Assembly: GCA_964609855.1 (NCBI GenBank)
Contig: CAZSTB010000006.1
Coordinates: 365 to 64,364, forward strand
Source: an uncultured Bdellovibrionales bacterium
GTDB lineage: Bacteria; Patescibacteriota; Minisyncoccia; Moranbacterales; GWC2-37-73
Reading direction: 5' to 3'
Length of the DNA stretch: 64,000 nucleotides
Of the stretch, positions 20,071 to 42,616 are shown in pieces. Made by a program: the position numbers and the translations under genes. The first letter of the stretch is position 1; each line of letters begins with the position of its first letter. The notes under the pieces were generated by a model. That model had not been told where the DNA came from, did no database searches, and worked only from the letters and a program-made list of their open reading frames with translations.

Positions 20071-20550
20071 ATGAAAAAATATTATAAAAAATTTAATAGC
20101 AATAGCGTTTTTTCAGCTAGCTTTAAGGTTGCATTAGTAGCTGTTTTTGCAGTTTTCTTGTTGACCTTGCCCCTTACTAGAATTGAAGCTGCTGAAAGTA
20201 TTGTTTCTTGTGGTAGATCAGATCAGAGCATGTGCACGCTGTGTGACATAATAAAGGGCATGAATATCATCATAAAATATTTGATGCAAATTTCTATTGG
20301 GGTGGCGCTTTTGGCTATAACTATCGGAGGTGTCATGTATATTATTTCTCCTGCTGATAAGGGAATGGTAGAAATGGGAAAAAAAGCGATGACCAACGCA
20401 TTTATCGGTTTCGCACTTATTTTTGCTGGATATTTGATTATAAATACAACTATTCAATATATCGGAACTAGACCTGGGATGGGCGTAAAAAGTGCGAATA
20501 GTACATTCCTATGGTCGAATTTTGATTGCAGCGCTCCTGCTGGAAAATAA
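20071..20550 (+). CDS. T4SS pilin-like (TrbC/VirB2-like) protein
   Basis: Signal peptide. C-terminal two-helix module with the loop motif MYIISPADKG...IGFALIFAGY. The same module is shared with paralogs at 39392-42616. Confidence 0.45.
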   Translation: MKKYYKKFNSNSVFSASFKVALVAVFAVFLLTLPLTRIEAAESIVSCGRSDQSMCTLCDIIKGMNIIIKYLMQISIGVALLAITIGGVMYIISPADKGMVEMGKKAMTNAFIGFALIFAGYLIINTTIQYIGTRPGMGVKSANSTFLWSNFDCSAPAGK

Positions 20551-20579
20551 TATAAAAACAGAATTTAATTTAAAAATTT

Positions 20580-21710
20580 ATGAAGAGTAAAAAGATTCTC
20601 GTATTAGCGGCACTTTATTTTTTAAGCGTATTTTTTGCCATAGATGATGCGAAAGCAGTCACAGAATGCACAAATAATCCGTCAATTTGTTCAGGTGGGA
20701 CCATATGCGCAGATGCTGGTTACGGACTCAAGACCTGTATTCAACCAAAAAATATTGGAAGCGCATGTAGTGAAAATGTAGAATGTGAGAGCGGAAATTG
20801 CGCAGATGCCGGTTATAATTTAAAAACATGTCAACTGGGAAGTGTTACTTTGCCTGCGAATGATTCCGATTTATGCAAAAGTTATAACATTAACTTCGCA
20901 TGTCGAAATGTTGATACTCTCTCTACATCAAGTGGTTGTCAAACTGGAAAATGTCCAGGAGCTGCCAATATTCAGTGTTGTCCCGAAAGCACTCCTCTTA
21001 AAGTGATTGCACCTATTGAAAATAGTTCGGAATGCTCAAATTTCAATGCCAATAATACTTGTACGAACATAAATACCTTGGCTAGCACCAGTGGTTGTCA
21101 AACTGGAAAATGTCCTGGAGCTGCTAATATTCAGTGTTGTCCTAAAAATGCTCCCTTGAAGCCAAATAATGGCTCAAATGAAACTGGTGGTTCAACAACC
21201 TTTACAAATCCACTCAAGTTTAATACTGTCGAATCTTTTCTGACCACTATCATGAGTGCGATCCAGCGGATCATTGTTTCGCTAGCGTTAGTGTTTATTG
21301 TAATCGGCGCATTGATGTATATATCTGCAGGGGCAAGTCCTGGTAATGCAGAAAAAGGAAAGGAGGCTATTACAATGGCTCTTGTTGGTTTAGCGATTGG
21401 AATTGCGGCGCCGTCCCTACTCAAAGAACTTGGATCTGTTTTAGGCTGGGGCGGTGTTGATAGTAGCGCCGTTGCTGGAGCTTTGACTTTATCACAGATT
21501 GCGATTAAGATTTTGAATTTCCTGTTAAGTATAACCGGTATTTTATCATTAATCATGTTGGTTATCGGAGCGATTATGTATCTTACTTCTGCAGGTGACT
21601 CGGATCGAATAAGTAAAGGCAAGGATATTTTCAAATATTCGTTGCTTGGTGTTATTATTGCAATGTCCGCAATGATTTTAGTACAGCAGATTGCGACGCT
21701 GTTTTCATAA
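20580..21710 (+). CDS. Cys-rich secreted protein with two tandem C-terminal T4SS pilin-like modules
   Basis: Repeats SSGCQTGKCPGAANIQCCP x2. Two modules with the xSAGxSx...KGK...IG motif. Confidence 0.45.
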   Translation: MKSKKILVLAALYFLSVFFAIDDAKAVTECTNNPSICSGGTICADAGYGLKTCIQPKNIGSACSENVECESGNCADAGYNLKTCQLGSVTLPANDSDLCKSYNINFACRNVDTLSTSSGCQTGKCPGAANIQCCPESTPLKVIAPIENSSECSNFNANNTCTNINTLASTSGCQTGKCPGAANIQCCPKNAPLKPNNGSNETGGSTTFTNPLKFNTVESFLTTIMSAIQRIIVSLALVFIVIGALMYISAGASPGNAEKGKEAITMALVGLAIGIAAPSLLKELGSVLGWGGVDSSAVAGALTLSQIAIKILNFLLSITGILSLIMLVIGAIMYLTSAGDSDRISKGKDIFKYSLLGVIIAMSAMILVQQIATLFS

Positions 21711-21801: not shown

Positions 21802-22251
21802 ATGTTAATCAGCGTTCCGCAATATATTGACGTAGAGGATAAAATCGTCGGCCCACTTACTGCAAAGCAATTGGGAATGTTTATCGGTCTTGGGGTAGCG
21901 ATGCTTGTTTTATGGAATGTTGTTCCTAAGCCGGTATTTTTTATCATAGCCTTGCCGATGTTGATCTTTGTAATCGCCCTGGCATTTTTTCGGCCATATG
22001 GACAACCATTGGGAAGTTTTTTACTTTTTGGACTTTTTTATTTCTTCAGACCAAAAGTTTATATTTGGAAAAGAATGCCACAAAATGTTATAAACATTCC
22101 GCAGAAAGAAAAAGTAGTAGATGTGAAAACGGAAGAAAAGCAAATTACGGCTCAGTCCTTGAGTGATTTGGCGCGGATGCTGGATAGTGAGGGTACTGCT
22201 CAAATTGAAGGAATAGAAGATATATTAAAAAAGGAACCTCGGAAGAAATAA
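21802..22251 (+). CDS. VirB3/PrgI-like small membrane protein
   Basis: 149 aa. GPLTAKQLGMFIGLG motif resembles VirB3 (xGLTRP). Two TM helices. Immediately upstream of the VirB4 ORFs. Confidence 0.4.
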   Translation: MLISVPQYIDVEDKIVGPLTAKQLGMFIGLGVAMLVLWNVVPKPVFFIIALPMLIFVIALAFFRPYGQPLGSFLLFGLFYFFRPKVYIWKRMPQNVINIPQKEKVVDVKTEEKQITAQSLSDLARMLDSEGTAQIEGIEDILKKEPRKK

Positions 22252-22295: not shown

Positions 22296-23054
22296 TTGAG
22301 CGATCTCAAACCTTATTTAAAAAAGTTAAGCTTATTCTCAAATAAATTTTGTTTAAACAAAAAAATGGAATCATTGCATTCAAATAGTCTGACAAGTGGT
22401 AGTACTGGCGGCCTTAGCACTCAGAAATATGTGGACGTAGAAGAGGTCAGAGATGGTGTTATCATGCTGAAGAACGGGTCAATGCGCGGCGTTCTTATGG
22501 TCTCGTCTATTAATTTTGATCTAAAAGCCTCTGAAGAACAAGATTCAATAATCAGCCAATATCAAAATTTTCTCAACTCCTTGGATTTTCCAATTCAAAT
22601 TGTCATTAGTTCGAGAAAACTGAATGTAAATCCTTATTTGGATTATTTGAAGAAAAAAGAAGCTGAGCTTTCAAATGAACTCTTAATCTTGCAACTTGGA
22701 GAATATAGAAATTTTATAAAAAGCTTAGCAGAGGTATCAAGTATTATGTCTAAGTATTTTTATGTTGTAGTTCCGTTTTATCCGGTAGAAAATACGAAAT
22801 CAGGAATATTGGACAGATTATTCGGCTCAACAAATTCTCAAATGGCGGTCTCAAGGCGGCGCGCGCTGTTTGATACCTATAAGAACCAGCTTTGGCAAAG
22901 ACTCGATCATGTAAGTGCTGGACTTGGGAGTACTGGAGTAAAAGTGACTGCACTTAAAACGGAGGAACTGATTGAACTTCTATATAATTCCTATAATCCC
23001 TCCACGCAGAGTAATACAATTATTAAGGATACCGATAAAGTTGAGTTGCGATAG
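22296..23054 (+). CDS. VirB4/TrbE N-terminal domain-like protein (possible split-gene part)
   Basis: VEEVRDGVIMLKNGSMRGVLMVSSINFDLKASEEQD resembles the CagE/TrbE/VirB N-terminal region. Separated from the ATPase ORF by 99 nt containing stops. Confidence 0.4.
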   Translation: MSDLKPYLKKLSLFSNKFCLNKKMESLHSNSLTSGSTGGLSTQKYVDVEEVRDGVIMLKNGSMRGVLMVSSINFDLKASEEQDSIISQYQNFLNSLDFPIQIVISSRKLNVNPYLDYLKKKEAELSNELLILQLGEYRNFIKSLAEVSSIMSKYFYVVVPFYPVENTKSGILDRLFGSTNSQMAVSRRRALFDTYKNQLWQRLDHVSAGLGSTGVKVTALKTEELIELLYNSYNPSTQSNTIIKDTDKVELR

Positions 23055-23153
23055 TGCAGATTATGCAATTTAGCATAGGATAAGATTTTAAACTAATTCA
23101 ATATAGCTAAATAAATTTAAATTGACCAATGGTCATTTATATTAAATAACGGG

Positions 23154-24977
23154 ATGTTTGGACAAAATAAAACTCAAAAACCAAAAGTTGAAACAAACGC
23201 AGTTCTTCAAAGTGAAGCGCTATATCAACGCGGAGTTGCAACTATTAAGGACCTGATAGCACCATCAGCAATGAAAATAGGTGCTGATAATCTGCAGATC
23301 GGCGAAACTTATGCTAGGACTCTGTTTATTGTTGCTTATCCAAGATATCTTCATACGAATTGGTTTTCTCCGATTATAAACATCGATTTTTCAATGGACA
23401 CATCCATGTTTGTGCACCCAATTGATACCTCAGAGATTTTGAAAAACCTGAGAAAAAGCTCAACACAGGTGCAATCGCAAATCCACATGGAGGAACAATC
23501 AGGAAAAATTCGCGATCCGATTTTGGAAACTGCCTTGCAGGATATTGAAGATTTGCGGGATAAATTAATGCAGGGAACTGAAAAGTTCTTCCGGTTTGGT
23601 TTGTATATTACCATTTATGGAAAAACGCTGGAAGAATTAAACAAAGCGAATCAGCAGATAGAATCTATTTTAGAGGCCCAGTTGGTGTACCTTAAGCCAG
23701 CGGTATTAAAGGTGGAGCAGGGCTTTGCTTCAACGTTGCCATTAGCGAATGATGAACTGGATGTTGCAAACAATCTTAACACCGCACCGCTTTCAACAAC
23801 ATTTCCATTCGTTTCAGCTGATCTCTCATCAAATGAGGGAATTCTTTATGGAATAAACCGTCATAATAACAGCTTGATTTTGTTTGATCGTTTCAAAATG
23901 GAAAATGCCAACATGGTTGTTTTTGCGAAGTCTGGAGGAGGTAAAAGTTATACCGTAAAATTAGAGATTTTCCGGTCACTGATGGTTGGTACGAATGTAA
24001 TTGTAATCGATCCTGAAAATGAATATAAATATCTTTGCGAAACAGTCGGGGGAACTTTTATTAAGCTATCTTTAAATTCTGCATTTCACCTTAACCCATT
24101 TGATCTTCCTAATGTCGGTGAGGATGAAGATCCTGAGGATGTATTACGTTCAAATATCGCTAGTCTTATCGGCTTGCTGCATATCATGCTTGGGGCAGTT
24201 ACTCCTGAAGAGGATTCGATTTTAGATATCGCAATTCGCGAAACTTATGCAATGAGAGACATTACGCCACAAAGTAATTTCAAATCCTTTAATTCCAGCT
24301 CTTTCCCTACGATGTCTGACCTATACTCGGTAATCAGAAATTCCGAAGGAGGCGAATCCGTCGCAAAACGTTTAGAGAAATACACGGAAGGTATTTTCGC
24401 TGGAGTGCTTAATCACACGACAAATGTGCAAATTTCCAATCAACTTGTAGTTTTCAATATTCGCGATCTTGAAGAACAGCTGAGACCGATTGCGATGTAT
24501 ACTATCTTGCAATTTATTTGGAATGAGATGCGCTCAACCTTGAAAAAAAGAATCGTGGTTGTCGATGAAGCATGGGTAATGATGCAGAATGATGATGCTG
24601 CCTCATTCCTCTTTGGAATTGCAAAGCGTTGTCGTAAATATTACACAGGTCTAACAACTATCACTCAGGATATTGCCGACTTCATGAGCTCACGCTATGG
24701 AAAGCCTATTGTAACAAACTCCTCGCTGCAATTATTACTAAGGCAATCTCCTGCTGCTATTGAAACCATTTCGGATACTTTTTACCTTACAGAGCAGGAA
24801 AAGTTTCTTTTACTTGAAAGTAATGTTGGAGAAGGAATTTTGTTTGCCGGAGCTAAGCATGTGGCAATCAAAGTCATCGCTTCTTATGCAGAAGATCAGA
24901 TTATTACTTCAGATCCTCGCCAGCTTGTAGAGATAGAACAAGCCAAGAAAGAATTTGATGAAGAAGAAGGCAACTAG
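23154..24977 (+). CDS. virB4: VirB4/TraE-family T4SS ATPase (Gram-positive type)
   Basis: Walker A AKSGGGKS, Walker B VVVDEAW. YPRYL...W motif upstream of the ATPase core. Confidence 0.8.
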   Translation: MFGQNKTQKPKVETNAVLQSEALYQRGVATIKDLIAPSAMKIGADNLQIGETYARTLFIVAYPRYLHTNWFSPIINIDFSMDTSMFVHPIDTSEILKNLRKSSTQVQSQIHMEEQSGKIRDPILETALQDIEDLRDKLMQGTEKFFRFGLYITIYGKTLEELNKANQQIESILEAQLVYLKPAVLKVEQGFASTLPLANDELDVANNLNTAPLSTTFPFVSADLSSNEGILYGINRHNNSLILFDRFKMENANMVVFAKSGGGKSYTVKLEIFRSLMVGTNVIVIDPENEYKYLCETVGGTFIKLSLNSAFHLNPFDLPNVGEDEDPEDVLRSNIASLIGLLHIMLGAVTPEEDSILDIAIRETYAMRDITPQSNFKSFNSSSFPTMSDLYSVIRNSEGGESVAKRLEKYTEGIFAGVLNHTTNVQISNQLVVFNIRDLEEQLRPIAMYTILQFIWNEMRSTLKKRIVVVDEAWVMMQNDDAASFLFGIAKRCRKYYTGLTTITQDIADFMSSRYGKPIVTNSSLQLLLRQSPAAIETISDTFYLTEQEKFLLLESNVGEGILFAGAKHVAIKVIASYAEDQIITSDPRQLVEIEQAKKEFDEEEGN

Positions 24978-25055: not shown

Positions 25056-25718
25056 TTGATTTGGTTGGGGAATAAATATCAAATTGAATTATTGAATTAT
25101 GTGGAATTGTGTTATTGCATGGGAAATGCGGCTGAAAAGTACGATGAAGAAAATTTAGGTGAAAAGATAACACACGCGAAATTGAATCCCGCCAGTTTTA
25201 ACGTGCCTAAAAATGGAAGTAGCGATAATTATGGAGCAGCTGAAAAAGATGCGGATAGTGGAGAAAGTGATTCGCAAAGACTCAATAATGCTAGACAAAA
25301 AAATAACGTTAGTAAATCTCTCAATGATGCGAAAGAATTAGCAAAAAACGCAACCCCGATGGGTGCAATCTCTCTGTTGGGTCATATACATTTTTTGGGC
25401 GATATGCCATACGTGGCTGCCTTGGGCGCTGCAATTTTAAAAGATATTTTAGACTTGGTTTTCGTGGGATCATTGCCAGGGTTAGGGACCGTAATTACAA
25501 TTCTCTGCTCGGTTTTTATCGCAATGATGATGATGCTTGTAGGTTCAGGCGGAAAGCGAAAGGCGGTAAGCGGAATGTTAAAAAAATTTGGAACACTCTT
25601 GGCAGGGACGTTGGCAGAAGGAGTCATTCCTGGAATTAATTTTTTACCGATGGAATCGATAATGGTTGCATCTGTCTATGTAATGACGCTTACAGAAAGA
25701 AAAAATGAAGGCGACTGA
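25056..25718 (+). CDS. hypothetical membrane protein (possible T4SS accessory)
   Basis: Soluble N-terminal part. C-terminal hydrophobic helices. Confidence 0.4.
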   Translation: MIWLGNKYQIELLNYVELCYCMGNAAEKYDEENLGEKITHAKLNPASFNVPKNGSSDNYGAAEKDADSGESDSQRLNNARQKNNVSKSLNDAKELAKNATPMGAISLLGHIHFLGDMPYVAALGAAILKDILDLVFVGSLPGLGTVITILCSVFIAMMMMLVGSGGKRKAVSGMLKKFGTLLAGTLAEGVIPGINFLPMESIMVASVYVMTLTERKNEGD

Positions 25719-25810: not shown

Positions 25811-27337
25811 ATGTCTTCAAAAATTTATTCTGCCGCAACAATCGGCTTGGATGGTGAAATTGTTGAAGTTGAGGTGGACGTCTTAGGTGCTGGTCTACAT
25901 AATTTCACTATTGTGGGACTTCCTGATGTTGCCATCAAGGAATCGCGTGACAGAGTTAGTAGCGCGATTAAAAACAGTGGTTTTAAGCCGCCACATCAAT
26001 GCGGAAGAGTTACGGTTAATCTTGCTCCGGCTGATTTGCCAAAGGCGAGTCCGATTTATGATCTACCGATAGCCATTGGACTTTTACTGGCAACAAAGCA
26101 GCTGCAATTTGATAGCAATTCAAAGCTGCTTGTAGGCGAACTCTCTTTGGATGGAAGAGTGCGTTCCATTCAAGGGATTTTATCTATAACGCTACTAGCA
26201 AAGGAAAAAGGTTTTGAGGAATTGTATGTTCCCTCTGAAAATGCAGCTGAAGCGAGTGTAGTTAAAGGGATAAATATTATTCCAGTCGAAACGCTGTATG
26301 GACTCTGTGTGCATTTTTCTGGACCGAAGAAGTTGGCATATTATCCGCAAATTGACGGAGAAGCACTCTTTGATTGCTTGGAATATCCCAATGACATGGC
26401 GCATATAAGTGGTCAACAACATGCCAAAAGGGCATTGGAAATTGCGGCGGCAGGCGGGCATAATGTAATTTTAAATGGACCTCCTGGTAGCGGAAAAACC
26501 TTGCTTGCAAAAGCCATGCCGACGATTTTGCCACGACTAACTTTAGTGGAATCATTGGAAATTACGAAAATATTTTCCGTAGCAGGAAAACTGCATAAGG
26601 GGCAGTCGCTTGTAACCACACGCCCGTACAGAGCGCCGCACCATAGTGCAAGCAGTGTGTCATTGATTGGCGGAGGTTCTTATCCGCGGCCTGGAGAAAT
26701 CAGTTTGGCACACAGGGGTGTGCTGTTTCTGGATGAGTTCGCAGAATTTCCCAAAAGTGTCTTGGAGAATTTGCGCCAGCCACTTGAGGATGGTATGATA
26801 ACAATCTCAAGAGCAAAAGGCTCGCTGCACTTTCCTGCAAGATTTGTTTTGGTTGCCGCCATGAATCCCTGTTTTTGCGGAATGGCTACGGATCCTGAAA
26901 AGACATGTACATGCACACCGGCGCAGATAATCAGATATCAGCAAAAAATTTCCGGTCCAATTTTAGATCGCATCGATCTGCATATTGAAGTTCCGAGACT
27001 GAGTTTTGATAAGCTACAAGAAAACACAAATGAAGAAAAAAGTGAGACGATCCGTAAGCGGGTAGAATCAGCAAGGAAACTTCAGGCTAAAAGATTCCAG
27101 GAATTGAATATTATTTCGAACAGTGAAATGTCTTCAGACCAAATCAGAATTTTCTGCGAGTTGGATGAACAATCAAAAGAATTATTAAAAAGCGCTGTTT
27201 CGGCTTTAAAATTGAGTGCTCGCGGCTATCATCGGATAATTAAAATCGCCAGAACGATCGCTGATTTGGCCGGTAGTGAGGCAATTTTAGCTCAGCATAT
27301 TGGAGAGGCGATTCAATACCGGTTTAAAAGTGAATAG
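25811..27337 (+). CDS. comM: YifB/ComM-family AAA+ (Mg-chelatase-like) protein
   Basis: N-terminal MSSKIYSAATIGLDG, Walker A GPPGSGKT, and C-terminal ChlI-like domain. Confidence 0.85.
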   Translation: MSSKIYSAATIGLDGEIVEVEVDVLGAGLHNFTIVGLPDVAIKESRDRVSSAIKNSGFKPPHQCGRVTVNLAPADLPKASPIYDLPIAIGLLLATKQLQFDSNSKLLVGELSLDGRVRSIQGILSITLLAKEKGFEELYVPSENAAEASVVKGINIIPVETLYGLCVHFSGPKKLAYYPQIDGEALFDCLEYPNDMAHISGQQHAKRALEIAAAGGHNVILNGPPGSGKTLLAKAMPTILPRLTLVESLEITKIFSVAGKLHKGQSLVTTRPYRAPHHSASSVSLIGGGSYPRPGEISLAHRGVLFLDEFAEFPKSVLENLRQPLEDGMITISRAKGSLHFPARFVLVAAMNPCFCGMATDPEKTCTCTPAQIIRYQQKISGPILDRIDLHIEVPRLSFDKLQENTNEEKSETIRKRVESARKLQAKRFQELNIISNSEMSSDQIRIFCELDEQSKELLKSAVSALKLSARGYHRIIKIARTIADLAGSEAILAQHIGEAIQYRFKSE

Positions 27338-27344
27338 ACAAAAA

Positions 27345-28310
27345 ATGCGTAAGCAAGGTTTTAAAAAAATAAATTATAAAAAATCAGCAATAATTATTGG
27401 TGTTTTTTTATGTTTTACCGTTTTTAAAATTTCTTTTGCGCAGGAATCTTCACAAATTTTTAGCACCGCAGTGAAGAAAATTATAATCAATGATGAAGGT
27501 CTTGCTTTCCAAGTTCATTCTGAGGCTGAAACAGTCGAACAGTTTTTAAGGGAAAATGAAATCGAGTTAAGCAAAGATGACCAAGTTTTACCGGAAAAAA
27601 CTGAAAAAATATATTCAGGATCGCGAATTTTCATACACCGTGCCAAAAAAATTACCATCAAAGAAGGTGGCAAAGTTAAGGAGGTCATCACCTTTCAAAA
27701 CAATGTAGAAAAGGCTATTTGGGAAAATAAAGACATTGAATTGGGCGCTGATGATATTACCAAGCCAAGCAGACAAGCATTTATTAAGGACGGCTCGGTT
27801 ATAAATATAACGCATGTGCTAATAAAAGAAGAGATTGAACATGAGGATATCGCTTTTAAAACCGTTTCGAATGAGGACGATAAAATGGGGTGGCGTGAAA
27901 AGAAAGTCACGCAAAAAGGCGAAAAAGGTAAAAGAGAAGTGAAATATAAAGTGGTTTATAATGATGGAAAAGAAATTTCTCGAAAAGTTTTAGATAAAAC
28001 TACGCTTAAAGAGCCAGTTGAGGAGATTGTCACCCAGGGAACATATGTTAAAGTAGGAAAGGTTCATACGGGAGCTGCTAGTTGGTATGCATGGACGGGA
28101 ACGATGGCTGCAGCTAATCCTTGGCTTCCGATGGGAAGTTATGTTAGGGTTACAAATAAGGCAAACGGTAAGCAGGTAATTGTTAAAATAAATGACCGTG
28201 GCCCTTTTGGTCCAGGGCGAATAATTGATTTGGATAAAGTTGCTTTTGCACAAATAGCCTCGATCGGCGCAGGAGTTGTGGATGTAAAAATGGAAGTGAT
28301 TATCAATTAG
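27345..28310 (+). CDS. RlpA-like double-psi beta-barrel protein with G5/DUF348-like N-terminal region
   Basis: C-terminal GAASWYAW...PMGSYVRVTN...GKQVIVKINDRGPF motif (RlpA DPBB). N-terminal TM. ATG at 27345 preferred over 27300 because 27300 overlaps comM. Confidence 0.6.
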   Translation: MRKQGFKKINYKKSAIIIGVFLCFTVFKISFAQESSQIFSTAVKKIIINDEGLAFQVHSEAETVEQFLRENEIELSKDDQVLPEKTEKIYSGSRIFIHRAKKITIKEGGKVKEVITFQNNVEKAIWENKDIELGADDITKPSRQAFIKDGSVINITHVLIKEEIEHEDIAFKTVSNEDDKMGWREKKVTQKGEKGKREVKYKVVYNDGKEISRKVLDKTTLKEPVEEIVTQGTYVKVGKVHTGAASWYAWTGTMAAANPWLPMGSYVRVTNKANGKQVIVKINDRGPFGPGRIIDLDKVAFAQIASIGAGVVDVKMEVIIN

Positions 28311-33358: not shown

Positions 33359-34435
33359 TTGCTTCATCTTGTTCGTAATTATTCAGCTTTTGCTGTTGTC
33401 GTTAGTAGTGCCCTGCTTGTTAGTGCCACCAATGTAGCTTCATCCGGAAAGGGTGCTGGAAGCTTCCTTTTTGGTTATTGGGATTCATCAGCTCAAGCCT
33501 CGGCTGCACGTAGCAAGATTAGCGGACAAGTTGATAAGAAAAATGATTTAGCTTTAGTGCCACTTTCTAAGGCAAGCACAGCAGTTGATCCTGGAGCTAA
33601 AGAAGAGGAAGTAACTCAAAATATTATTCAAGGTCAGGGGATCATGGCTGCGGCTGGTGGAGCTAGCCCGATGAAAGATCCTGAACAAGATGGTGGGGTT
33701 AAAATGTATATCGTTCAATCAGGCGATACGCTTGGATCGATTGCTGCGAAAAATGAAGTTTCCATCAACACGATTTTGTGGGCCAACGATATTGATAATG
33801 TCGATTCGATCATGCCTGGCGACACTTTGTTTATTTTGCCTGTGTCTGGAATTAAATATGTCATAAAGGATGGCGACAAGATAGATGCCATCGCTGCTAA
33901 GTTTAAATCAGAAAAGGATAAGATTATCGCCTTTAATGATCTTCCGGCAAACGGAGATTTGGAGGCGGGAAAAGAGATTGTTATTCCTGACGGACAGGGA
34001 GAAGCTCCGAAACCTCAAGTGCCTGCAGCTAGTCCATCGACGCTTATTGAAAAAAGACAGTATGCAAACGCCACTGGTGGAACTCCTGAAGTTTCTACGG
34101 GAAAAATATTAGGCGGAAAACCTGGAACCGGACATAGGTTCCCATATGGATATTGCACGTGGTATGTTGCGCAAAAAAGACATGTCCCTTGGGGTGGAAA
34201 TGCTGGAACATGGCTATATCATGCAAAGGCTAGTGGATATGCAACCGGAAGAACACCTAAAGTCGGATCGATCATGGTTACCACTGAAAATCGCTACTAC
34301 GGCCACGTCGCTTATGTGGAAAAAGTTTCCGGAGATACGATAACAGTGAGCGAGATGAATTATGCCGGTTTTGCAAAAGTTTCTCGTCGCACACTTTCAG
34401 CAAAGAGTCGCGCAATCAAGGGATTTGTATATTAG
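33359..34435 (+). CDS. LysM-LysM-CHAP domain peptidoglycan hydrolase (secreted)
   Basis: Two LysM repeats (YIVQSGDTLGSIA..., YVIKDGDKIDAIA...). C-terminal CHAP with a Cys (CTWYV) and a His (YGHVAYV). TTG start per the ORF track. Confidence 0.75.
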   Translation: MLHLVRNYSAFAVVVSSALLVSATNVASSGKGAGSFLFGYWDSSAQASAARSKISGQVDKKNDLALVPLSKASTAVDPGAKEEEVTQNIIQGQGIMAAAGGASPMKDPEQDGGVKMYIVQSGDTLGSIAAKNEVSINTILWANDIDNVDSIMPGDTLFILPVSGIKYVIKDGDKIDAIAAKFKSEKDKIIAFNDLPANGDLEAGKEIVIPDGQGEAPKPQVPAASPSTLIEKRQYANATGGTPEVSTGKILGGKPGTGHRFPYGYCTWYVAQKRHVPWGGNAGTWLYHAKASGYATGRTPKVGSIMVTTENRYYGHVAYVEKVSGDTITVSEMNYAGFAKVSRRTLSAKSRAIKGFVY

Positions 34436-34454
34436 AAAGTGCTTGATATGAATA

Positions 34455-34487
34455 GAAAAAACTCAGTTATAATAGCTGAGTTTTTTT
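34455..34487 (+). terminator. rho-independent terminator
   Basis: AAAAAACTCAG-loop-CTGAGTTTTTTT. Confidence 0.6.
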
Positions 34488-34592
34488 CTTTTAAATAAGT
34501 TCTTCAAATATTATTTGCTACGGTAAAAAGGTTTCTATAAATATCGAAAATATGCTATAATTTTTTCATAGGAGATAACATAGAAATCCCGA

Positions 34593-36704
34593 ATGAATTG
34601 GATTTTCAAAAACAAAAACAAAAGAGCAAAGACGCTGCTTGTCGTCTTGTTTTTGGCGTTTGGATTCTCTTTTGTTAGTTTCGATGATGCGAAAGCGGCA
34701 GGTATTTGCGAAAGCGGCAGTACTGAAAAAACTTGCGAATGCTTTAATGGAAGTGCTTCATTAAGTTTTTTTCCGGCCGGACACAATATAAGTGATTTTA
34801 ATGCCCAGTTGACTACAGGTTTTTGTCATCAAGAATCTTGCATGCAATACTGCATGTTTAAATTTCCAGCTACGACTGCAGTTAAATATGACGGGGGAAC
34901 ATTTGGAACAAGCTCAATAAAAAATAGTTCAAGCGCTGTTATATCCGCACCCTCATTATCAGAGCAAGTTTGCGGCGGAACATTGAGCATGTTTAACCCT
35001 TCAACATGGCTGCAATGTGCGCTAATCATGGTTTTGCAACTCGTCGGCTATCTGTTCGCAATAGCGGCGACACTTTTTGCATGGGCAATTGATCCCTCAA
35101 ACGTTTCCGGGCCTAATGGTATTTTGGAAAAACAAGCCATCAAGGACGTGTGGATTATGGTTCGCGATCTTTTGAATATGACCTTTATTTTGATCTTACT
35201 TTTCTCGGCTTTCTGCACAATTTTTCAAATCGATAACTGGGGTCTTAAAAAAGTTTGGCTCAATATTTTGATAAACGCCCTCTTGGTAAATTTTTCCTTT
35301 CCAATTGCGCGTTTTATTATCGATATTTCAAACGTAACTTTTTATTATTTTGTAAAGCATTTGTTCGCATCTACTGGAACCTCAACTGTTACTGGTTCAA
35401 CAATCTTTTCAAGTTTTGCATCCACATCTGGAATCGGCGATTTGTTGCAGCCTGATAAATATGCGGACCATGCAATTCCATATCTGATTGCATCGATAAT
35501 TTTCGTTTTTATTTTCGGAATGACGCTGCTTATTATCGGAGCATTATTCATTGTTCGCCTTGTCGCGCTGGCAATGCTTATCATGTTTTCCCCGATCGGT
35601 TTTGTGGGTTATATTTTTCCTGAAAGTGCCAGTTATGCCAACAAGTGGTGGAAAAATCTTTTTAGCTACTCTTTCTTTGCGCCGATTATGATTTTTGTTA
35701 TGGCGATTTCGCTGCGAATCATGCAAGCCTTGCAGGCGGAGAATATGAGTTCGATGCAAGCGATCAGTGGAGTTAACGCCGTTTCAGATCAACAAGGTTG
35801 GGTGGCAAATGCAGCATTTTACACAATTCCGATTATCATTCTCTGGGGTGGAATGGGAATTGCAAAATCCTCAGGCATTGCCGGAGCGGACACCGTCGTC
35901 AATTCTGTGAAAAAAGGAGGAAAATGGGCTGCCACAAATCTTTCTGGTTACGGCTATATGAAAAAGAATTATGATGCTTACGCTGGAGCCAGAAAGAAAC
36001 GCGTAGAGGAAAAAGATAAGAAACGCTGGGGCGGCAAATTTGGCGATGGCGTAAATGATAAGCAAGATAAGCTATTGGCCAAGCTAGGCTCTGAAGCTGC
36101 GATGAAGCGATACAATAAGAGAAAAGAGACAGGAAATAAGGATGATATTAAAGATGGCGTTGAGGGAGCAGAAAGTAGAACTGCTGATGAATTAAAATCA
36201 CAAATCAAGACTTCTATGAACTCCACAACGCCACTGAGCGATAAGGAAAAAATGGATTATGCTATAAATGCTAAGTTGGCATTAAATCGTGGAGCTAAAT
36301 ATGAATCTGGATTTGAAGAAGATCTTAAGGCTGACATGAAAAACAATTTAACAACTGATTCTAGATTCGCCACATTGCATGCAAGTACTGTGGATCTCGC
36401 AAGGGCAGAGATGAATTTCAATAATCATCCAAAAAATCCTCCAACTGCAACTGGAACTAGTGCAAGCGCGCAGCGAAATCATCAAATTCAAATGGCGAAA
36501 TGGACTGCAGATAGAACCTTGCTGAAAGAAGCACATGAAAATGCAAAGAAGAAAGTCGAGTCAGATGAGAAAAAGATCATTCAAAGCGAAAAAACAAAGC
36601 ATCTCGACAACTTAAGAAAAGCAATTAAAGATGCCGAGGAGGTTGGAAAGATAAATAAACCGGCTCCAACTCCTGCACCTCCTGGCCCGACTCCAACACC
36701 ATAA
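34593..36704 (+). CDS. TrbL/VirB6-like polytopic T4SS membrane protein with Cys-rich N-terminal ectodomain and Pro-rich C-terminal tail
   Basis: Signal peptide plus Cys-rich region, then 6-7 TM helices. Charged Lys/Glu-rich tail ending PAPTPAPPGPTPTP. Promoter GAAAATATGCTATAAT at 34541-34557. Confidence 0.5.
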   Translation: MNWIFKNKNKRAKTLLVVLFLAFGFSFVSFDDAKAAGICESGSTEKTCECFNGSASLSFFPAGHNISDFNAQLTTGFCHQESCMQYCMFKFPATTAVKYDGGTFGTSSIKNSSSAVISAPSLSEQVCGGTLSMFNPSTWLQCALIMVLQLVGYLFAIAATLFAWAIDPSNVSGPNGILEKQAIKDVWIMVRDLLNMTFILILLFSAFCTIFQIDNWGLKKVWLNILINALLVNFSFPIARFIIDISNVTFYYFVKHLFASTGTSTVTGSTIFSSFASTSGIGDLLQPDKYADHAIPYLIASIIFVFIFGMTLLIIGALFIVRLVALAMLIMFSPIGFVGYIFPESASYANKWWKNLFSYSFFAPIMIFVMAISLRIMQALQAENMSSMQAISGVNAVSDQQGWVANAAFYTIPIIILWGGMGIAKSSGIAGADTVVNSVKKGGKWAATNLSGYGYMKKNYDAYAGARKKRVEEKDKKRWGGKFGDGVNDKQDKLLAKLGSEAAMKRYNKRKETGNKDDIKDGVEGAESRTADELKSQIKTSMNSTTPLSDKEKMDYAINAKLALNRGAKYESGFEEDLKADMKNNLTTDSRFATLHASTVDLARAEMNFNNHPKNPPTATGTSASAQRNHQIQMAKWTADRTLLKEAHENAKKKVESDEKKIIQSEKTKHLDNLRKAIKDAEEVGKINKPAPTPAPPGPTPTP

Positions 36705-39754: not shown

Positions 39755-40108
39755 ATGAACATTGTTAAAAAATTTGTATACGGAATCGCTTCAATTATCG
39801 TGGTGTTGCCGACAACCGTGGGAGCTCAACTTCAGACACCTGAAGGAACAGGTCTTCCAGCGGGAAGTGTGATAAATATCATAACCAATGGAATGAATTA
39901 TCTTTTGATTCTCGTTGGTGTTCTTGGAGTTATCGGATTCGTTATCGCTGGTATCATTTATTTGACTGCAGCTGGCGACGAAGATCAGATAGAAAGAGGA
40001 AAGAGAACTATGATCAATTCTATCATTGGAATCATCGTAGCGCTTTTGGGAATCATTGTTTTGACAGCCGTAAAAAGTATGCTTGGGGGAACTGATAAAA
40101 CTTTCTAG
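39755..40108 (+). CDS. T4SS pilin-like small protein
   Basis: Strong RBS AGGAAAGGAGGT. Motif IYLTAAGDEDQIERGKR...IIG. Confidence 0.5.
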   Translation: MNIVKKFVYGIASIIVVLPTTVGAQLQTPEGTGLPAGSVINIITNGMNYLLILVGVLGVIGFVIAGIIYLTAAGDEDQIERGKRTMINSIIGIIVALLGIIVLTAVKSMLGGTDKTF

Positions 40109-40129
40109 TTCTGCAAGTTACATTTTGTA

Positions 40130-40166
40130 CAAGCAAAAAACAACCTTAAGGGTTGTTTTTTGCTTG
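40130..40166 (+). terminator. rho-independent terminator
   Basis: CAAGCAAAAAACAACC-TTAA-GGGTTGTTTTTTGCTTG. Confidence 0.6.
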
Positions 40167-40328
40167 CGTAAAAATTATAAGACCTATATTTATATATACA
40201 CTTTTACTGAAAATATGCTATAATGAATATGAAAATATCTTAAAAATTTATTCTTCCGTTGTTTTTTGATCAGCTACGCTTGCTATTGAATTAGAAAGAT
40301 AGCTTTTGAAAAAAAATAAAAAATAAAA

Positions 40329-40784
40329 ATGAAAGTACAAAATAAGATTCTGTCACTAATTGTTTTCTCATTTGTCTTTTTTGCGCAAGTCCTGCCAGTA
40401 CTTGCTGGTCCAGAATGGAATGCATCAGTCGGGCCAGATGGAAATGTGGGTTTTCAAATAGGTACACAACAGGGTCTTAATGCTCTCAATGGAAATAATG
40501 CTGACGCAGCAATGAATAATCCATATGGCTTGCCGGGTGGAAGTATTTTGGATATAATTTCAAACCTCTTGTTTTGGCTGCTGGCTATTTTTTCCGTACT
40601 AGGAATCATTGGCTTTTTGATTTCTGGAATCTTGTATCTTCTGGCTGGTGCGGATGAGGATAATGCAAAAAAGGGAAAAGAGGGCATGAAAGCTTCAATT
40701 ATTGGAATCATTGTCGGTCTTTCAGGTTATGTTATCATGCAGGCAGTTGGAATATTTTTACGCGGAGATACGACAATGTTCTAA
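40329..40784 (+). CDS. T4SS pilin-like protein
   Basis: Signal peptide. Motif LYLLAGADEDNAKKGKE...IIG. Promoter GAAAATATGCTATAAT at 40210-40226. Confidence 0.5.
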   Translation: MKVQNKILSLIVFSFVFFAQVLPVLAGPEWNASVGPDGNVGFQIGTQQGLNALNGNNADAAMNNPYGLPGGSILDIISNLLFWLLAIFSVLGIIGFLISGILYLLAGADEDNAKKGKEGMKASIIGIIVGLSGYVIMQAVGIFLRGDTTMF

Positions 40785-40840
40785 AGTAGATTGATTAGGT
40801 TTGATTTAGATAAATACAGTAATCAGTTTTTATAACAAAA

Positions 40841-41710
40841 ATGAAAAATAAAAGCGCATATTTATTTGTTGGCATTTTCCTATTCTCAGGCTTACTTTTT
40901 TTTGGAGAAAGTGAAAAAGCTAACGCTCAAGCATTTTCTGGATCATATTCATACTCTGAATGCAAAAGTGATGGTGGAAGTGAGGCGTATTGCAGTCAAT
41001 TTAGCGGTGCACCTCAATCTTCCACAAATATCAGCAATGCATCCGCAGGAAGTTGCCGTTTCAATAGTGATTGCGGAAATAATTTTACGTGTTATCAGGA
41101 TACCTGTATGGATGATGCAACCTATCAGGAAAATGTTTCTTGGATTAATCGTACTGGTAACGCCGTGTCGCAGGTACTAACTCCTGGTGGGTCAATATTT
41201 GATGATGGTACGAATTCTACCTCTTCTTCATCAGGTGGGGAGCTAACGATGATTGCTTATGATATTAATGGTAACCCTGTTTTTGATCCTGACCAATATG
41301 CTGGAGCAGGAAATACGAATTCTAATATTGTTAACAATAACAACAACAGTAATAATACTGGATCCGGCAATACTAACGGAATTCAAACAGCAAAATGCAG
41401 CGGGGCAAATTTTACGGAAATCGGGGGAATCTGTTTTCCTGTAGACACAGGCATGCCGAATCCAGAATTCGGAATAGTCCAGATTATTGGCAATCTCTTT
41501 TCCTGGTTAATGGGTTTATTTTCCGTGCTTTCCTTGGCGGCTTTTGTGATATCCGGAATTCAGTATGTCACATCCGCTGGAGATTCTGGCCAAGCAGAGA
41601 CTGCTAAAAAGAACGCCCTAAATGCTGTTTTAGGAATTATTGTGGGTTTCTCTGGTTTTGTTATTGTTCAAGCTGTGAATTATGCACTAGAGGGGCAAGG
41701 TTTCTTTTAA
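40841..41710 (+). CDS. Cys-rich secreted protein fused to C-terminal T4SS pilin-like module
   Basis: Motif QYVTSAGDSGQAETAKKNA...GII. N-terminal Cys-rich region and an Asn-rich tract. Confidence 0.5.
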   Translation: MKNKSAYLFVGIFLFSGLLFFGESEKANAQAFSGSYSYSECKSDGGSEAYCSQFSGAPQSSTNISNASAGSCRFNSDCGNNFTCYQDTCMDDATYQENVSWINRTGNAVSQVLTPGGSIFDDGTNSTSSSSGGELTMIAYDINGNPVFDPDQYAGAGNTNSNIVNNNNNSNNTGSGNTNGIQTAKCSGANFTEIGGICFPVDTGMPNPEFGIVQIIGNLFSWLMGLFSVLSLAAFVISGIQYVTSAGDSGQAETAKKNALNAVLGIIVGFSGFVIVQAVNYALEGQGFF

Positions 41711-41734
41711 GATAGTTTTTATTGGAAGAATTTT

Positions 41735-42616
41735 ATGAAATTAAAAAAACTTTTATTTCTTAGCTTATTTCTTAGCTTATTTTTTGTTGGAAATGGCGTA
41801 GAAGCCGTAACTGAGTGCGAAACCGCCGGCGGAATTTGCAGTATTTTTTCGAATATGACTTGCGAATCCAGGCATTTATTGGGAAAGGAAGATATGGTAA
41901 CCACAAATCTCTCGTGCAACAATAGTGCAGCAAGTTGTTGCATGCCAAAAGTTGCCACTCCTGCAATAACAGCACCAGTTACAACACCAACCACACCAAC
42001 TACAACTCCAGTTACAACCCCAGTTACAGCCCCAACCATTAACACTCCAACTACAAATACCCCAACTGTTAATCCTCCAGTTACGGCTAATGCAAATGCT
42101 TGTTCAGATCTTGAGTATTTAGGTCGCGATGGAAATTGTTATCCCAAGGAGAATCTAAATATAGAAAATGGCAATTTATGTTCCGATATTGAGTATCTAG
42201 GTCTCGACGGAAATTGCTACCCAAGGGAAAACTTAAACATTGTAAATGAAAATAATAACACTTTCCCCGGTGTGCCTAGTGGCGGCGCTCAGACTGCCAA
42301 ATGCGGCAATGGCTTCTATGAGAAAGGAAATGTTTGTTTTCCAACACAAACGGGACTGCCAAGTCCAGAAAACGGTGTAGTTCAAATTCTCAGTAACCTT
42401 TTTTCCTGGTTAATGGGTTTATTTACCATACTTTCGTTGGCAGCTTTCACGGTTTCTGGCATTCAATATGTAATTTCTGCTGGAGATTCAGGTTTGGCTG
42501 AAACTGCCAAGAAAAACGCAGTCAATTCAATTATTGGAATTGCAGTGGGACTTTCTGGATTTATCATCGTACGGGCCATAAATGCGGCACTTACTGGGCA
42601 GGGTTTTTTCTTTTAG
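41735..42616 (+). CDS. Cys-rich, Thr/Pro-linker secreted protein fused to C-terminal T4SS pilin-like module (paralog of 40841-41710)
   Basis: Internal tandem duplication CSDLEYLGRDGNCYPKENLNIENGN / CSDIEYLGLDGNCYPRENLNIVNEN. PTTPTTTPVTTPV linker. Motif QYVISAGDSGLAETAKKNA. Confidence 0.5.
   Translation: MKLKKLLFLSLFLSLFFVGNGVEAVTECETAGGICSIFSNMTCESRHLLGKEDMVTTNLSCNNSAASCCMPKVATPAITAPVTTPTTPTTTPVTTPVTAPTINTPTTNTPTVNPPVTANANACSDLEYLGRDGNCYPKENLNIENGNLCSDIEYLGLDGNCYPRENLNIVNENNNTFPGVPSGGAQTAKCGNGFYEKGNVCFPTQTGLPSPENGVVQILSNLFSWLMGLFTILSLAAFTVSGIQYVISAGDSGLAETAKKNAVNSIIGIAVGLSGFIIVRAINAALTGQGFFF

What the first reader, a model, noticed from the sequence alone, without database searches (positions are those of the whole stretch)
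22296..24977. VirB4 ATPase apparently split into N-terminal-domain ORF and ATPase ORF
ORF 22296-23054 (252 aa) carries a VirB4/TrbE N-terminal-like segment (DGVIMLKNGSMRGVLMVSSINFDLKASEEQD). ORF 23154-24977 (607 aa) carries the YPRYL...W region and the Walker A/B ATPase core. Together they total about 860 aa, the size of canonical VirB4. They are separated by 99 nt containing stop codons in all frames and an AT-rich promoter-like stretch. This is either a natural two-gene arrangement or a disrupted pseudogene.
Basis: partly seen in the sequence, partly recalled or inferred. Interest (0 to 1): 0.55.

Follow-up and report, generated by a model that had tools for sequence, protein, structure and literature searches.

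The report
Naturally two-gene VirB4 secretion ATPase
The motor ATPase (VirB4) of this ultra-small bacterium's type IV secretion system is encoded as two adjacent genes; this is the normal, conserved state in its whole lineage, not a broken gene, and it has already been described in the literature.

Summary
Two same-strand ORFs, 22365-23054 (229 aa; the true start is this ATG, not the TTG at 22296) and 23154-24977 (607 aa), are separated by 99 AT-rich nt with stops in all frames. Together they cover one VirB4. ORF1 matches the first ~210 residues of full-length VirB4 proteins. ORF2 matches the rest: the second half of the N-terminal domain plus the Walker A/B ATPase domain. Single-gene relatives align collinearly with ORF1 then ORF2, including a 797-aa Patescibacteria protein (42% and 52% identity).

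It is not a pseudogene or an assembly error. Three independent assemblies carry the identical junction. Of 80 species-level Moranbacteria genomes, 78 show the same split, none is fused, and 2 are cut by a contig end. The ORF1 C-terminus and ORF2 N-terminus are conserved, while the spacer varies in length, sequence and frame. Both genes are under strong purifying selection.

ORF1 is a remote homologue of TrsD of staphylococcal pGO1/pSK41, and TrsD/TrsE split at the same point. Quiñonero-Coronel et al. 2025 (PMC12102498) already report TrsD homologues next to virB4 across Patescibacteria. Verdict: an ordinary, known arrangement. Assembly of the two proteins and docking to VirB3 are inferred, not shown.

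The parts
20071..20550 (+). VirB2-like T4SS pilin paralogue (159 aa)
   Evidence: Pfam T4SS_pilin PF18895, E 1e-6. A pilin gene occupies the same syntenic position in relatives.
20580..21710 (+). VirB2-like T4SS pilin paralogue with a long N-terminal extension (376 aa)
   Evidence: Pfam T4SS_pilin, E 5e-17. Conserved synteny.
21802..22251 (+). PrgI / VirB3-like membrane protein (149 aa), immediately upstream of ORF1
   Evidence: Pfam PrgI PF12666, E 1.5e-8. A PrgI gene precedes the ORF1 homologue in every related locus examined.
22365..23054 (+). ORF1: TrsD-like / 'TraC-like' protein (229 aa), the detached first half of the VirB4 N-terminal domain.
   Evidence: NCBIfam matches to the N-terminal ends of VirB4 models and to TrsD/TraD. 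The identical protein carries precomputed Pfam PF26593 TraC-like. 42% identity to residues 8-211 of a fused 797-aa VirB4. In a Foldseek search of the AlphaFold model, the top 14 PDB hits are all R388 TrwK/VirB4. There are 4052 homologue clusters, and the best 120 are all ~226-230 aa.
23055..23153 (.). Intergenic spacer, 99 nt, 24% G+C, stops in all frames. Contains a 13-nt palindrome TGACCAATGGTCA at 23123-23135.
   Evidence: The spacer is identical in three independent assemblies, but in relatives it is 4, 12, 14, 31, 56 or 160 nt with unrelated sequence and any relative frame. No promoter or terminator signal above background.
23154..24977 (+). ORF2: VirB4 core (607 aa), comprising the second half of the N-terminal domain (about residues 20-240) plus the C-terminal P-loop ATPase domain (Walker A at 261, Walker B at 468)
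   Evidence: NF045971 CD1110 VirB4 family, E 1e-111, 374 bits against a cut-off of 325, model positions 178-734 of 752. Pfam P-loop_TraG, AAA_10, DUF87, CagE_TrbE_VirB. PDB 4ag5 VirB4 C-terminal domain, E 2e-48; TrwK 304-735 aligns with ORF2 126-552. The top 120 homologues are 566-618 aa.
25056..25718 (+). Small conserved protein directly downstream (up to 220 aa by the first possible start), function unknown. Syntenic with VirB4 in relatives.
   Evidence: Only a weak DUF6580 match. A 152-247-aa gene with no Pfam hit follows the ATPase gene in all related loci.
33359..36704 (+). Second T4SS cluster: a LysM/CHAP cell-wall hydrolase (33359-34435, VirB1-like role) and a TrbL/VirB6-like polytopic protein (34593-36704)
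   Evidence: Pfam CHAP, LysM and TrbL.
39755..42616 (+). Third T4SS cluster: four more VirB2-like pilin paralogues
   Evidence: Pfam T4SS_pilin in all four ORFs, E 5e-7 to 3e-9.

Best explanation
The window is a chromosomal segment of a Patescibacteria (Candidatus Moranbacteria / Moraniibacteriota) bacterium that carries its monoderm-type type IV secretion system. In this lineage VirB4 is naturally encoded by two adjacent genes.

ORF1 (22365-23054, 229 aa) is a soluble TrsD-like / 'TraC-like' protein. It corresponds to roughly the first 210 residues of a canonical VirB4, which is the first half of its N-terminal domain.

ORF2 (23154-24977, 607 aa) is the rest of VirB4: the second half of the N-terminal domain plus the RecA-like Walker A/B ATPase domain.

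The break lies at a short, variable linker. It is about 14 residues in the fused Patescibacteria homologue and about 60 acidic residues in a clostridial one.

Shown here: the homology, the complementarity, the conservation and the selection.

Inferred: the two polypeptides assemble non-covalently into a functional VirB4. In the R388 T4SS structure, the VirB4 N-terminal domain is the part that VirB3 wraps around, and it also mediates VirB4 dimerisation (PMC9259494). By analogy, ORF1 most likely supplies the platform that docks the ATPase to the PrgI/VirB3 membrane protein encoded just upstream, and so to the membrane channel.

The same fission, at the same position and in the same gene order (pilin-like, VirB3-like, TrsD, VirB4), is found in staphylococcal pGO1/pSK41 (TrsD/TrsE) and in other Bacillota plasmids.
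For: Complementary homology:
- ORF1 44-114 matches CD1110 VirB4 model positions 3-76 of 752; ORF2 21-572 matches 178-734. ORF2 47-554 matches TIGR00929 positions 235-725 of 792.
- F-type TraC N-domain model PF11130: ORF1 matches positions 113-177 and ORF2 matches 298-374.

Naturally fused relatives align in order:
- P0239 (797 aa, a Patescibacteria MAG, PrgI gene upstream): ORF1 19-214 aligns with 8-211 (42% identity, E 4e-49) and ORF2 27-599 with 226-796 (52%). The canonical VirB4 model TIGR00929 covers P0239 residues 17-750.
- C. argentinense, 869 aa: ORF1 profile aligns with 68-212 and ORF2 with 275-857.
- C. perfringens, 783 aa: ORF1 profile aligns with 19-133 and ORF2 with 202-754.

Structure: an AlphaFold2 model of ORF1 (mean pLDDT 67) finds R388 TrwK/VirB4 chains as its top 14 PDB hits (E 9e-5 to 4e-3). 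The next hit is at E 0.33.

Conservation as two genes:
- The best 120 ORF1 homologues are ~226-230 aa when complete.
- The best 120 ORF2 homologues are 566-618 aa, and none carries PF26593.
- 149 of the best 150 cluster representatives at 50% identity are 161-443 aa; one is fused.
- 78 of 80 species-level genomes are split, 0 fused, and 2 are cut by a contig end.
- Synteny is conserved: methyltransferase, solute-binding protein, two pilins, PrgI, ORF1, ORF2, small protein, ComM, G5/DPBB protein.
- ORF1 ends ...DKVELR* and ORF2 starts MFG... at homologous positions, while the spacer is 4-160 nt in any frame.

Selection: pN/pS is 0.10-0.25 for ORF1 and 0.07-0.14 for ORF2, with synonymous sites saturated.

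Assembly support: the identical protein and identical 99-nt spacer occur in contigs from three different sequencing runs.

Same split in pSK41: ORF2 33-574 aligns with TrsE 36-617 (E 4e-47), and ORF1 33-98 with TrsD 48-114 (E 3e-5).

Link to VirB3: an Embleya plasmid encodes a single 349-aa protein with a PrgI domain (14-101) followed by the ORF1-like domain.

Literature: TrsD homologues are the most abundant T4SS component in Patescibacteria, mostly adjacent to virB4, and the TrsD homologue is listed as essential in Southlakia epibionticum (PMC12102498).
Against: No direct evidence here that the two proteins bind each other or PrgI. Only single chains could be modelled, and an attempt to model a fused homologue failed for lack of a usable alignment.

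The ORF1 model is of moderate confidence (pLDDT 67; TM-score 0.30-0.46 to TrwK). The fold search does not report which residues of TrwK were matched, so 'N-terminal' rests on the sequence mappings.

Sequence similarity of ORF1 to TrsD is weak: 30 bits against a curated cut-off of 200.

Profile searches of PDB sequences with ORF1 found nothing.

The 99-nt spacer is longer than the median of about 18 nt in relatives, so separate transcription of ORF2 in this strain cannot be excluded.
Confidence: 0.88

Rival explanations
1. Disrupted pseudogene: an originally single virB4 gene in this genome was recently broken by nonsense or indel mutations, and ORF1 and/or ORF2 are decaying remnants.
For: ORF1 and ORF2 are in the same reading frame, exactly 33 codons apart. 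A fused 797-aa homologue exists in another Patescibacteria genome.
Against: The spacer has 4 further in-frame stops and is AT-rich non-coding sequence. All 78 informative species-level relatives are split, with spacers of different length and frame. The gene termini are conserved. pN/pS is well below 1 for both ORFs across saturated synonymous divergence. Homologue lengths are tightly conserved at ~226-230 aa (complete ORF1 homologues) and 566-618 aa (ORF2 homologues).
Confidence: 0.01
2. Assembly or sequencing artefact: the 99-nt AT-rich stretch is a misassembly or chimeric join inside one gene.
For: The window comes from a metagenome-type organism.
Against: Contigs from three different sequencing runs (SRR446575, SRR26556853, SRR26556831) carry the identical ORF1 and a base-identical spacer. 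Dozens of independent MAGs show the same two-gene structure.
Confidence: 0.01
3. ORF1 is an independent accessory T4SS protein (TrsD family) whose resemblance to the VirB4 N-terminus is incidental or reflects an ancient duplication. On this view ORF2 is a complete 'short' monoderm VirB4 that needs no N-terminal complement.
For: pSK41 TrsE (672 aa), long treated as the plasmid's VirB4, aligns entirely within ORF2. No function is assigned to TrsD (PMC12102498). ORF1 evolves about 1.5-2 times faster than ORF2. In Gracilibacteria the TrsD homologues are reported not to be adjacent to virB4.
Against: Full-length VirB4 models and naturally fused proteins contain the ORF1-like segment exactly once, directly upstream of the ORF2-like segment, with no overlap or duplication. 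ORF2 lacks model positions 1-177 of CD1110 and 1-234 of TIGR00929. The ORF1 fold matches only VirB4 in the PDB.
Confidence: 0.08
4. The two ORFs are joined at the protein level by programmed translational read-through or frameshifting across the spacer.
For: They share a frame in this window.
Against: Five consecutive in-frame stops would have to be read through. In relatives the two genes are in all three relative frames, with spacers as short as 4 nt. No recoding signal or Rfam element is present.
Confidence: 0.005

Closest known systems
TrsD + TrsE of Staphylococcus aureus pGO1/pSK41 (MPF_FATA, pGO1 subclass); NCBIfam NF041427 'TrsD/TraD family conjugative transfer protein'
   Same: A ~227-aa soluble protein is encoded immediately upstream of a ~600-670-aa VirB4-like ATPase and downstream of a VirB3-like gene and a pilin-like (CagC family) gene. 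The ATPases align from their very N-termini: ORF2 33 with TrsE 36. The break is therefore at the same position. ORF1 and TrsD share the N-terminal beta-rich motif region.
   Different: Identity is very low (24% over 68 residues; 30 bits against the 200-bit family cut-off). pSK41 is a conjugative plasmid with a relaxase and a coupling protein. Here the genes are chromosomal, interleaved with housekeeping genes, and accompanied by six pilin paralogues.
Patescibacteria T4SS as described by Quiñonero-Coronel et al. 2025 (PMC12102498) and Wang et al. 2023 (PMC10633639, Southlakia epibionticum)
   Same: The same system. It has VirB4, a TrsD homologue, PrgI/VirB3, VirB6-like and multiple VirB2-like pilins. 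The TrsD homologue is adjacent to virB4 in 1,664 of 2,272 cases, and the T4SS genes, including the TrsD homologue, are essential for epibiotic growth in Southlakia.
   Different: This window is from a Moranbacteria-type genome rather than Saccharimonadia. The paper describes TrsD as 'remotely homologous to the N-terminal portion of VirB4' with no assigned function. I found no discussion of length, fusion or splitting of VirB4 in its main text, nor the point that the accompanying VirB4 lacks exactly that portion.
Full-length monoderm VirB4, CD1110 family (NF045971)
   Same: ORF2 scores above the family's curated cut-off (374 against 325 bits). ORF1 plus ORF2 are collinear with single-gene members from plasmids: C. 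perfringens 783 aa and C. argentinense 869 aa.
   Different: Those are one polypeptide. Here the first ~175-230 model positions are on a separate protein.
R388 TrwK / VirB4 (PDB 7O41, 8RTB, 8RTD)
   Same: ORF2 126-552 aligns with TrwK 304-735. The ORF1 model's only significant structural matches are TrwK chains. In R388 the N-terminal domain (residues 15-400) binds VirB3 and mediates VirB4 dimerisation (PMC9259494).
   Different: TrwK belongs to a diderm system and is a single 823-aa chain. Sequence identity is 12-18%.
Other VirB4 rearrangements: VirB3-VirB4 fusions in some conjugative systems; the SCO6880 family (NF042935) in Actinobacteria
   Same: They show that the VirB3 / VirB4 N-domain / ATPase module is repeatedly fused and split in evolution. 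The SCO6880 family model (477 positions) matches both ORF1 (positions 245-293) and the start of ORF2 (364-476). An Embleya plasmid fuses PrgI to the ORF1-like domain.
   Different: The break points differ. No VirB3-VirB4 fusions were found in Patescibacteria by PMC12102498.

Membership tests
VirB4 ATPase (monoderm CD1110 family NF045971 / TIGR00929) | Score above the curated family cut-off | tested here: met
   ORF2 scores 374.1 bits against a cut-off of 325 for NF045971, E 1.3e-111. It falls below the cut-off of the diderm-centred TIGR00929 model (128 against 643 bits).
VirB4 ATPase (monoderm CD1110 family NF045971 / TIGR00929) | C-terminal P-loop NTPase domain with Walker A and Walker B motifs | tested here: met
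   GGGKS at ORF2 residue 261 and VVVDEAW at 468. Pfam P-loop_TraG E 1e-28. PDB 4ag5 VirB4 C-terminal domain E 2e-48.
VirB4 ATPase (monoderm CD1110 family NF045971 / TIGR00929) | Complete N-terminal domain on the same polypeptide as the ATPase domain | tested here: not met
   ORF2 starts at model position 178 of 752 (CD1110) and 235 of 792 (TIGR00929). The missing part is on ORF1. ORF2 alone is therefore an N-terminally incomplete VirB4, and the gene pair is the functional equivalent.
VirB4 ATPase (monoderm CD1110 family NF045971 / TIGR00929) | Encoded in a T4SS locus next to VirB3/PrgI and other mating-pair-formation genes | tested here: met
   Two pilin genes and PrgI lie upstream. A VirB1-like hydrolase, a VirB6-like protein and four more pilin genes lie within 18 kb.
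VirB4 ATPase (monoderm CD1110 family NF045971 / TIGR00929) | ATP hydrolysis and hexamer formation | not testable with these tools
   Requires biochemistry.
TrsD/TraD family (NCBIfam NF041427) | Score above the curated cut-off (200 bits) | tested here: not met
   ORF1 scores 30.4 bits, E 3.2e-7, covering only model positions 28-100 of 201. It is a remote homologue, not a member by NCBI's criterion.
TrsD/TraD family (NCBIfam NF041427) | Stand-alone ~200-230-aa protein encoded between a VirB3-like gene and the VirB4-like ATPase gene | tested here: met
   Window gene order is PrgI, ORF1, ORF2. pSK41 gene order is trsC (weak PrgI-like match), trsD, trsE.
TrsD/TraD family (NCBIfam NF041427) | Homology to the N-terminal portion of VirB4 | tested here: met
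   The fused P0239 matches the TrsD model at its residues 9-123.
Pfam PF26593 'TraC-like' domain | Significant match to the Pfam model | tested here: inconclusive
   The collection's precomputed annotation assigns PF26593 to the protein identical to ORF1 (P0001), to all 120 best homologues, and to the N-terminus of fused P0239. The local Pfam copy does not return this model for any of them, and I assume it lacks it, so I could not reproduce the score.
Pseudogene / disrupted gene | Intact single-gene orthologues in close relatives, with disabling mutations and relaxed selection here | tested here: not met
   0 of 78 informative species-level relatives are fused. pN/pS is 0.07-0.25. Start and stop positions are conserved.

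The most novel reading that the evidence does not exclude
The fission of VirB4 at this exact linker is a single ancient event. It would be shared by the Patescibacteria T4SS and the pGO1/pSK41-type systems of Bacillota, which have the same break point and the same gene order (pilin-like, VirB3, TrsD, VirB4). That would make it a derived character tracing the essential Patescibacteria T4SS to that particular conjugative lineage. On this reading the free N-terminal subdomain is kept separate because it is functionally useful. For example, it could let the cell set the stoichiometry or timing of VirB3-bound versus unbound VirB4 subunits. Rare fused forms such as P0239 would then be secondary re-fusions.
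Probability: 0.25. Interest if true: 0.4.

Novelty: already known. Interest (0 to 1): 0.15.

Why it matters
For annotation, the ORF pair should be treated as one functional VirB4 (a TrsD-like N-subdomain plus the VirB4 core). It should not be flagged as a pseudogene, and ORF1 should not be left as 'hypothetical protein', which is its label in most public records.

For biology, the T4SS of Patescibacteria is essential for their epibiotic lifestyle in the one system tested (PMC10633639). The detached N-subdomain is the most widespread of its recognisable components, yet it has no assigned function (PMC12102498). Recognising it as the VirB3-docking half of the VirB4 N-terminal domain gives a concrete, testable role. 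None of this is new in kind, because the arrangement is published and also exists in classic staphylococcal plasmids.

Tried and rejected
1. Sequence searches of PDB chains with ORF1 alone and with a 29-sequence profile found nothing meaningful. Only the fold search linked ORF1 to VirB4 structures.

2. I tried to model a naturally fused homologue (P0239) to see how the ORF1-like and ORF2-like parts pack. MAFFT misplaced the fragment rows in every mixed alignment. ORF1 rows were scattered across the ATPase, or the ORF2 N-termini were placed on P0239 residues 8-95. Alignment A3 placed the ORF1 rows correctly but has no depth for the ATPase part.

3. The promoter/terminator scan of the spacer gave only a weak 9/12 promoter-like match and a 5-bp palindrome. 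Neither is above background nor conserved. I rejected the 'internal promoter' idea as unsupported.

4. The local Pfam library does not report PF26593, so that domain call rests on precomputed annotation.

5. With the fused P0239 as a tblastn probe against plasmids, only 123 of 1027 records were covered over at least 80% of the query. I did not use this as a count of split versus fused genes. The N-terminal part is too divergent for tblastn to extend through it even where the gene is fused.

6. A literature search for an explicit 'split VirB4' description beyond the TrsD remark found nothing more specific.

7. Rfam and tRNA scans found no RNA element in or near the spacer.
Full report
**1. The observation**

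The quoted peptide and the YPRYL, Walker A (GGGKS, residue 261) and Walker B (VVVDEAW, residue 468) motifs are all present.

The gap is 99 nt and 24% G+C, with four stop codons in each frame. The two ORFs are in the same frame, but four further in-frame stops follow ORF1's own stop.

One correction is needed. Homologues begin at the equivalent of the ATG at 22365 (MESLHS...) and are about 226-230 aa. ORF1 is therefore 229 aa, and the pair totals 836 aa.

**2. Context**

The window is a low-GC (~38%) chromosomal segment carrying IF-2, NusA, KsgA, PcrA/UvrD, XerC-like recombinase, trigger factor, ClpP, RNase Y and tRNAs. Close homologues come from Candidatus Moranbacteria / Moraniibacteriota, within Patescibacteria.

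ORF1 and ORF2 sit in a monoderm-type type IV secretion locus:
- Two VirB2-like pilin genes (20071-21710), then PrgI/VirB3 (21802-22251), ORF1, ORF2 and a small conserved protein.
- A LysM/CHAP hydrolase and a VirB6/TrbL-like protein at 33359-36704.
- Four more pilin paralogues at 39755-42616.

**3. Is it one VirB4 in two pieces?**

Yes. The evidence comes from family models, naturally fused proteins and structure.

Family models:
- ORF2 scores 374 bits on the CD1110 VirB4 family (cut-off 325), but only over model positions 178-734 of 752. ORF1 residues 44-114 match positions 3-76 of the same model.
- On the canonical VirB4 model TIGR00929, ORF2 starts at position 235 of 792.
- On Pfam's F-type TraC N-domain model, ORF1 matches positions 113-177 and ORF2 matches 298-374.

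Naturally fused proteins. Each aligns with ORF1 first and ORF2 next, without overlap.

| Fused protein | ORF1 maps to | ORF2 maps to |
|---|---|---|
| P0239, 797 aa, from a Patescibacteria genome with PrgI upstream and dnaA nearby | 8-211 (42% identity) | 226-796 (52% identity) |
| Clostridium argentinense plasmid, 869 aa | 68-212 | 275-857 |
| C. perfringens plasmid, 783 aa | 19-133 | 202-754 |

TIGR00929 spans residues 17-750 of P0239.

Structure:
- An AlphaFold2 model of ORF1 has moderate confidence (mean pLDDT 67). In the PDB it matches only chains of R388 TrwK/VirB4: the top 14 hits have E 9e-5 to 4e-3, and the next hit has E 0.33.
- ORF2 126-552 aligns with TrwK 304-735.
- The TrwK N-terminal domain is residues 15-400 (PMC9259494). 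The break therefore falls inside the N-terminal domain, between two halves.
- In the fused proteins the junction is a short Gly-rich stretch or a long acidic one, which suggests a linker.

**4. Natural arrangement or damage?**

It is a natural arrangement.

- The best 120 homologues of ORF1 (64-100% identity) are ~226-230 aa when complete. The best 120 homologues of ORF2 (75-93% identity) are 566-618 aa.
- A profile search of 1.8 billion cluster representatives found 3025 relatives of ORF1. Of the best 150, 149 are 161-443 aa and one is fused.
- Among 80 species-representative genomes carrying an ORF1 homologue, 78 have the ORF2 homologue as a separate downstream ORF, none is fused, and two are cut by contig ends.
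- In seven loci examined base by base, ORF1 ends ...DKVELR* and ORF2 starts MFG... or ML... at homologous positions. The spacer is 4, 12, 14, 31, 56, 99 or 160 nt, unrelated in sequence, and places the two genes in any relative frame.
- Synonymous sites are saturated (pS 0.76-0.85). Non-synonymous differences stay low: pN is 0.09-0.21 for ORF1 and 0.06-0.11 for ORF2.
- Contigs from three different sequencing runs carry the identical ORF1 and an identical 99-nt spacer.

Pseudogene, misassembly and read-through explanations are therefore rejected.

**5. The spacer**

There is no conserved element in the spacer. It has one weak promoter-like match and a 13-nt palindrome (23123-23135), neither above background nor present in relatives. 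At 99 nt it is longer than the median of about 18 nt. Whether ORF2 has its own promoter in this strain cannot be decided from sequence.

**6. Relation to known systems**

- ORF1 gives a weak but specific match to NCBIfam's TrsD/TraD family (E 3e-7, far below the cut-off).
- In pSK41 the order is a CagC-like pilin gene, trsC (weakly PrgI-like), trsD (227 aa) and trsE (672 aa).
- ORF2 33-574 aligns with TrsE 36-617 (E 4e-47), so the break point is the same. ORF1 33-98 aligns with TrsD 48-114.
- The same split occurs on Pontibacillus (274 + 621 aa) and Clostridioides difficile (322 + 640 aa) plasmids.
- An Embleya plasmid fuses PrgI to the ORF1-like domain.
- A Haloarcula plasmid has the ORF1-like domain at the start of a 556-aa protein that precedes a 761-aa VirB4-like protein.

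The literature already covers this case. Quiñonero-Coronel et al. 2025 (PMC12102498) report TrsD as the most abundant T4SS component in Patescibacteria. [quoted passage not shown] They found it adjacent to virB4 in 1,664 of 2,272 cases, and it is listed as essential in Southlakia epibionticum.

I found no explicit statement there that the accompanying VirB4 lacks exactly that portion. That is a modest sharpening, not a new finding.

**7. Mechanism**

Shown here: homology, complementarity, conservation, purifying selection and constant adjacency to PrgI.

Inferred: ORF1 and ORF2 associate non-covalently to rebuild a complete VirB4 N-terminal domain. [quoted passage not shown] A PrgI-ORF1-like fusion also exists in nature. 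ORF1 is therefore most likely the piece that docks the ATPase to PrgI/VirB3 and the membrane channel. I could not test the interaction. Only single chains can be modelled here, and the mixed alignments needed for a fused model were unusable.

**8. Verdict**

The arrangement is lineage-wide, shared with classic Gram-positive plasmids, and already published. Interest is low.

Noticed in passing
window 20071-21710 and 39755-42616: There are six VirB2-like pilin paralogues (Pfam T4SS_pilin) in two clusters 18 kb apart, several with long divergent N-terminal extensions. This matches the 'six sequence-divergent pilins' described for the Southlakia T4SS (PMC12857230), but here the T4SS genes are dispersed among housekeeping genes.
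   Followed up: partly
window 25811-28310: A ComM-like Mg-chelatase/MCM-type ATPase (508 aa) and a G5 + DPBB (RpfB-like lytic transglycosylase) protein follow the VirB4 genes. Both are syntenic with the T4SS genes in all related Moranbacteria loci examined. The transglycosylase could be the system's VirB1 analogue. The conserved ComM linkage is unexplained.
   Followed up: no
window 36718-39119: Two ORFs (135 aa and 665 aa) lie directly downstream of the VirB6/TrbL-like gene and overlap each other by 4 nt. Neither has a Pfam match. They are candidate lineage-specific T4SS components, such as a VirB8-like protein or a surface protein.
   Followed up: no
window 23123-23135: A perfect 13-nt palindrome, TGACCAATGGTCA, lies in the ORF1-ORF2 spacer. 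It is present in the three identical assemblies but absent from the spacers of relatives.
   Followed up: partly
window 28348-28710: A 120-aa '23S rRNA-intervening-sequence protein' (PF05635, a four-helix bundle, also bAvd-like) is inserted between the G5/DPBB gene and ksgA. Its role here is unknown.
   Followed up: no
L014 3596-4645 (Embleya sp. plasmid NZ_CP108778.1): A single 349-aa protein combines a PrgI/VirB3 domain (residues 14-101) with the ORF1-like TraC-like domain (about residues 136-302). It is followed by an XF1762-family gene and then a 643-aa VirB4 core. This is a different way of partitioning the VirB3 / VirB4-N / ATPase module.
   Followed up: partly
L013 3962-7914 (Haloarcula pelagica plasmid NZ_CP126164.1): A haloarchaeal plasmid encodes a 556-aa protein with the ORF1-like domain at its N-terminus and a DUF7139 domain (residues 324-454). 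A 761-aa VirB4-like protein follows. The detached N-subdomain therefore also occurs in archaeal conjugation-like loci.
   Followed up: partly
loci L027, L031, L039, L045 and about 25 others: Many public MAG records that carry this Moranbacteria-type locus at 56-84% protein identity are titled 'uncultured Bdellovibrionales bacterium'. This looks like a systematic taxonomic mislabel in those submissions.
   Followed up: no
window 22296-22364: The mechanical ORF call begins at a TTG 69 nt upstream of the conserved ATG. The extension (LSDLKPYLKKLSLFSNKFCLNKK) has no counterpart in homologues, which start at MESLHS. Neither this gene nor ORF2 or prgI has a recognisable Shine-Dalgarno sequence.
   Followed up: yes
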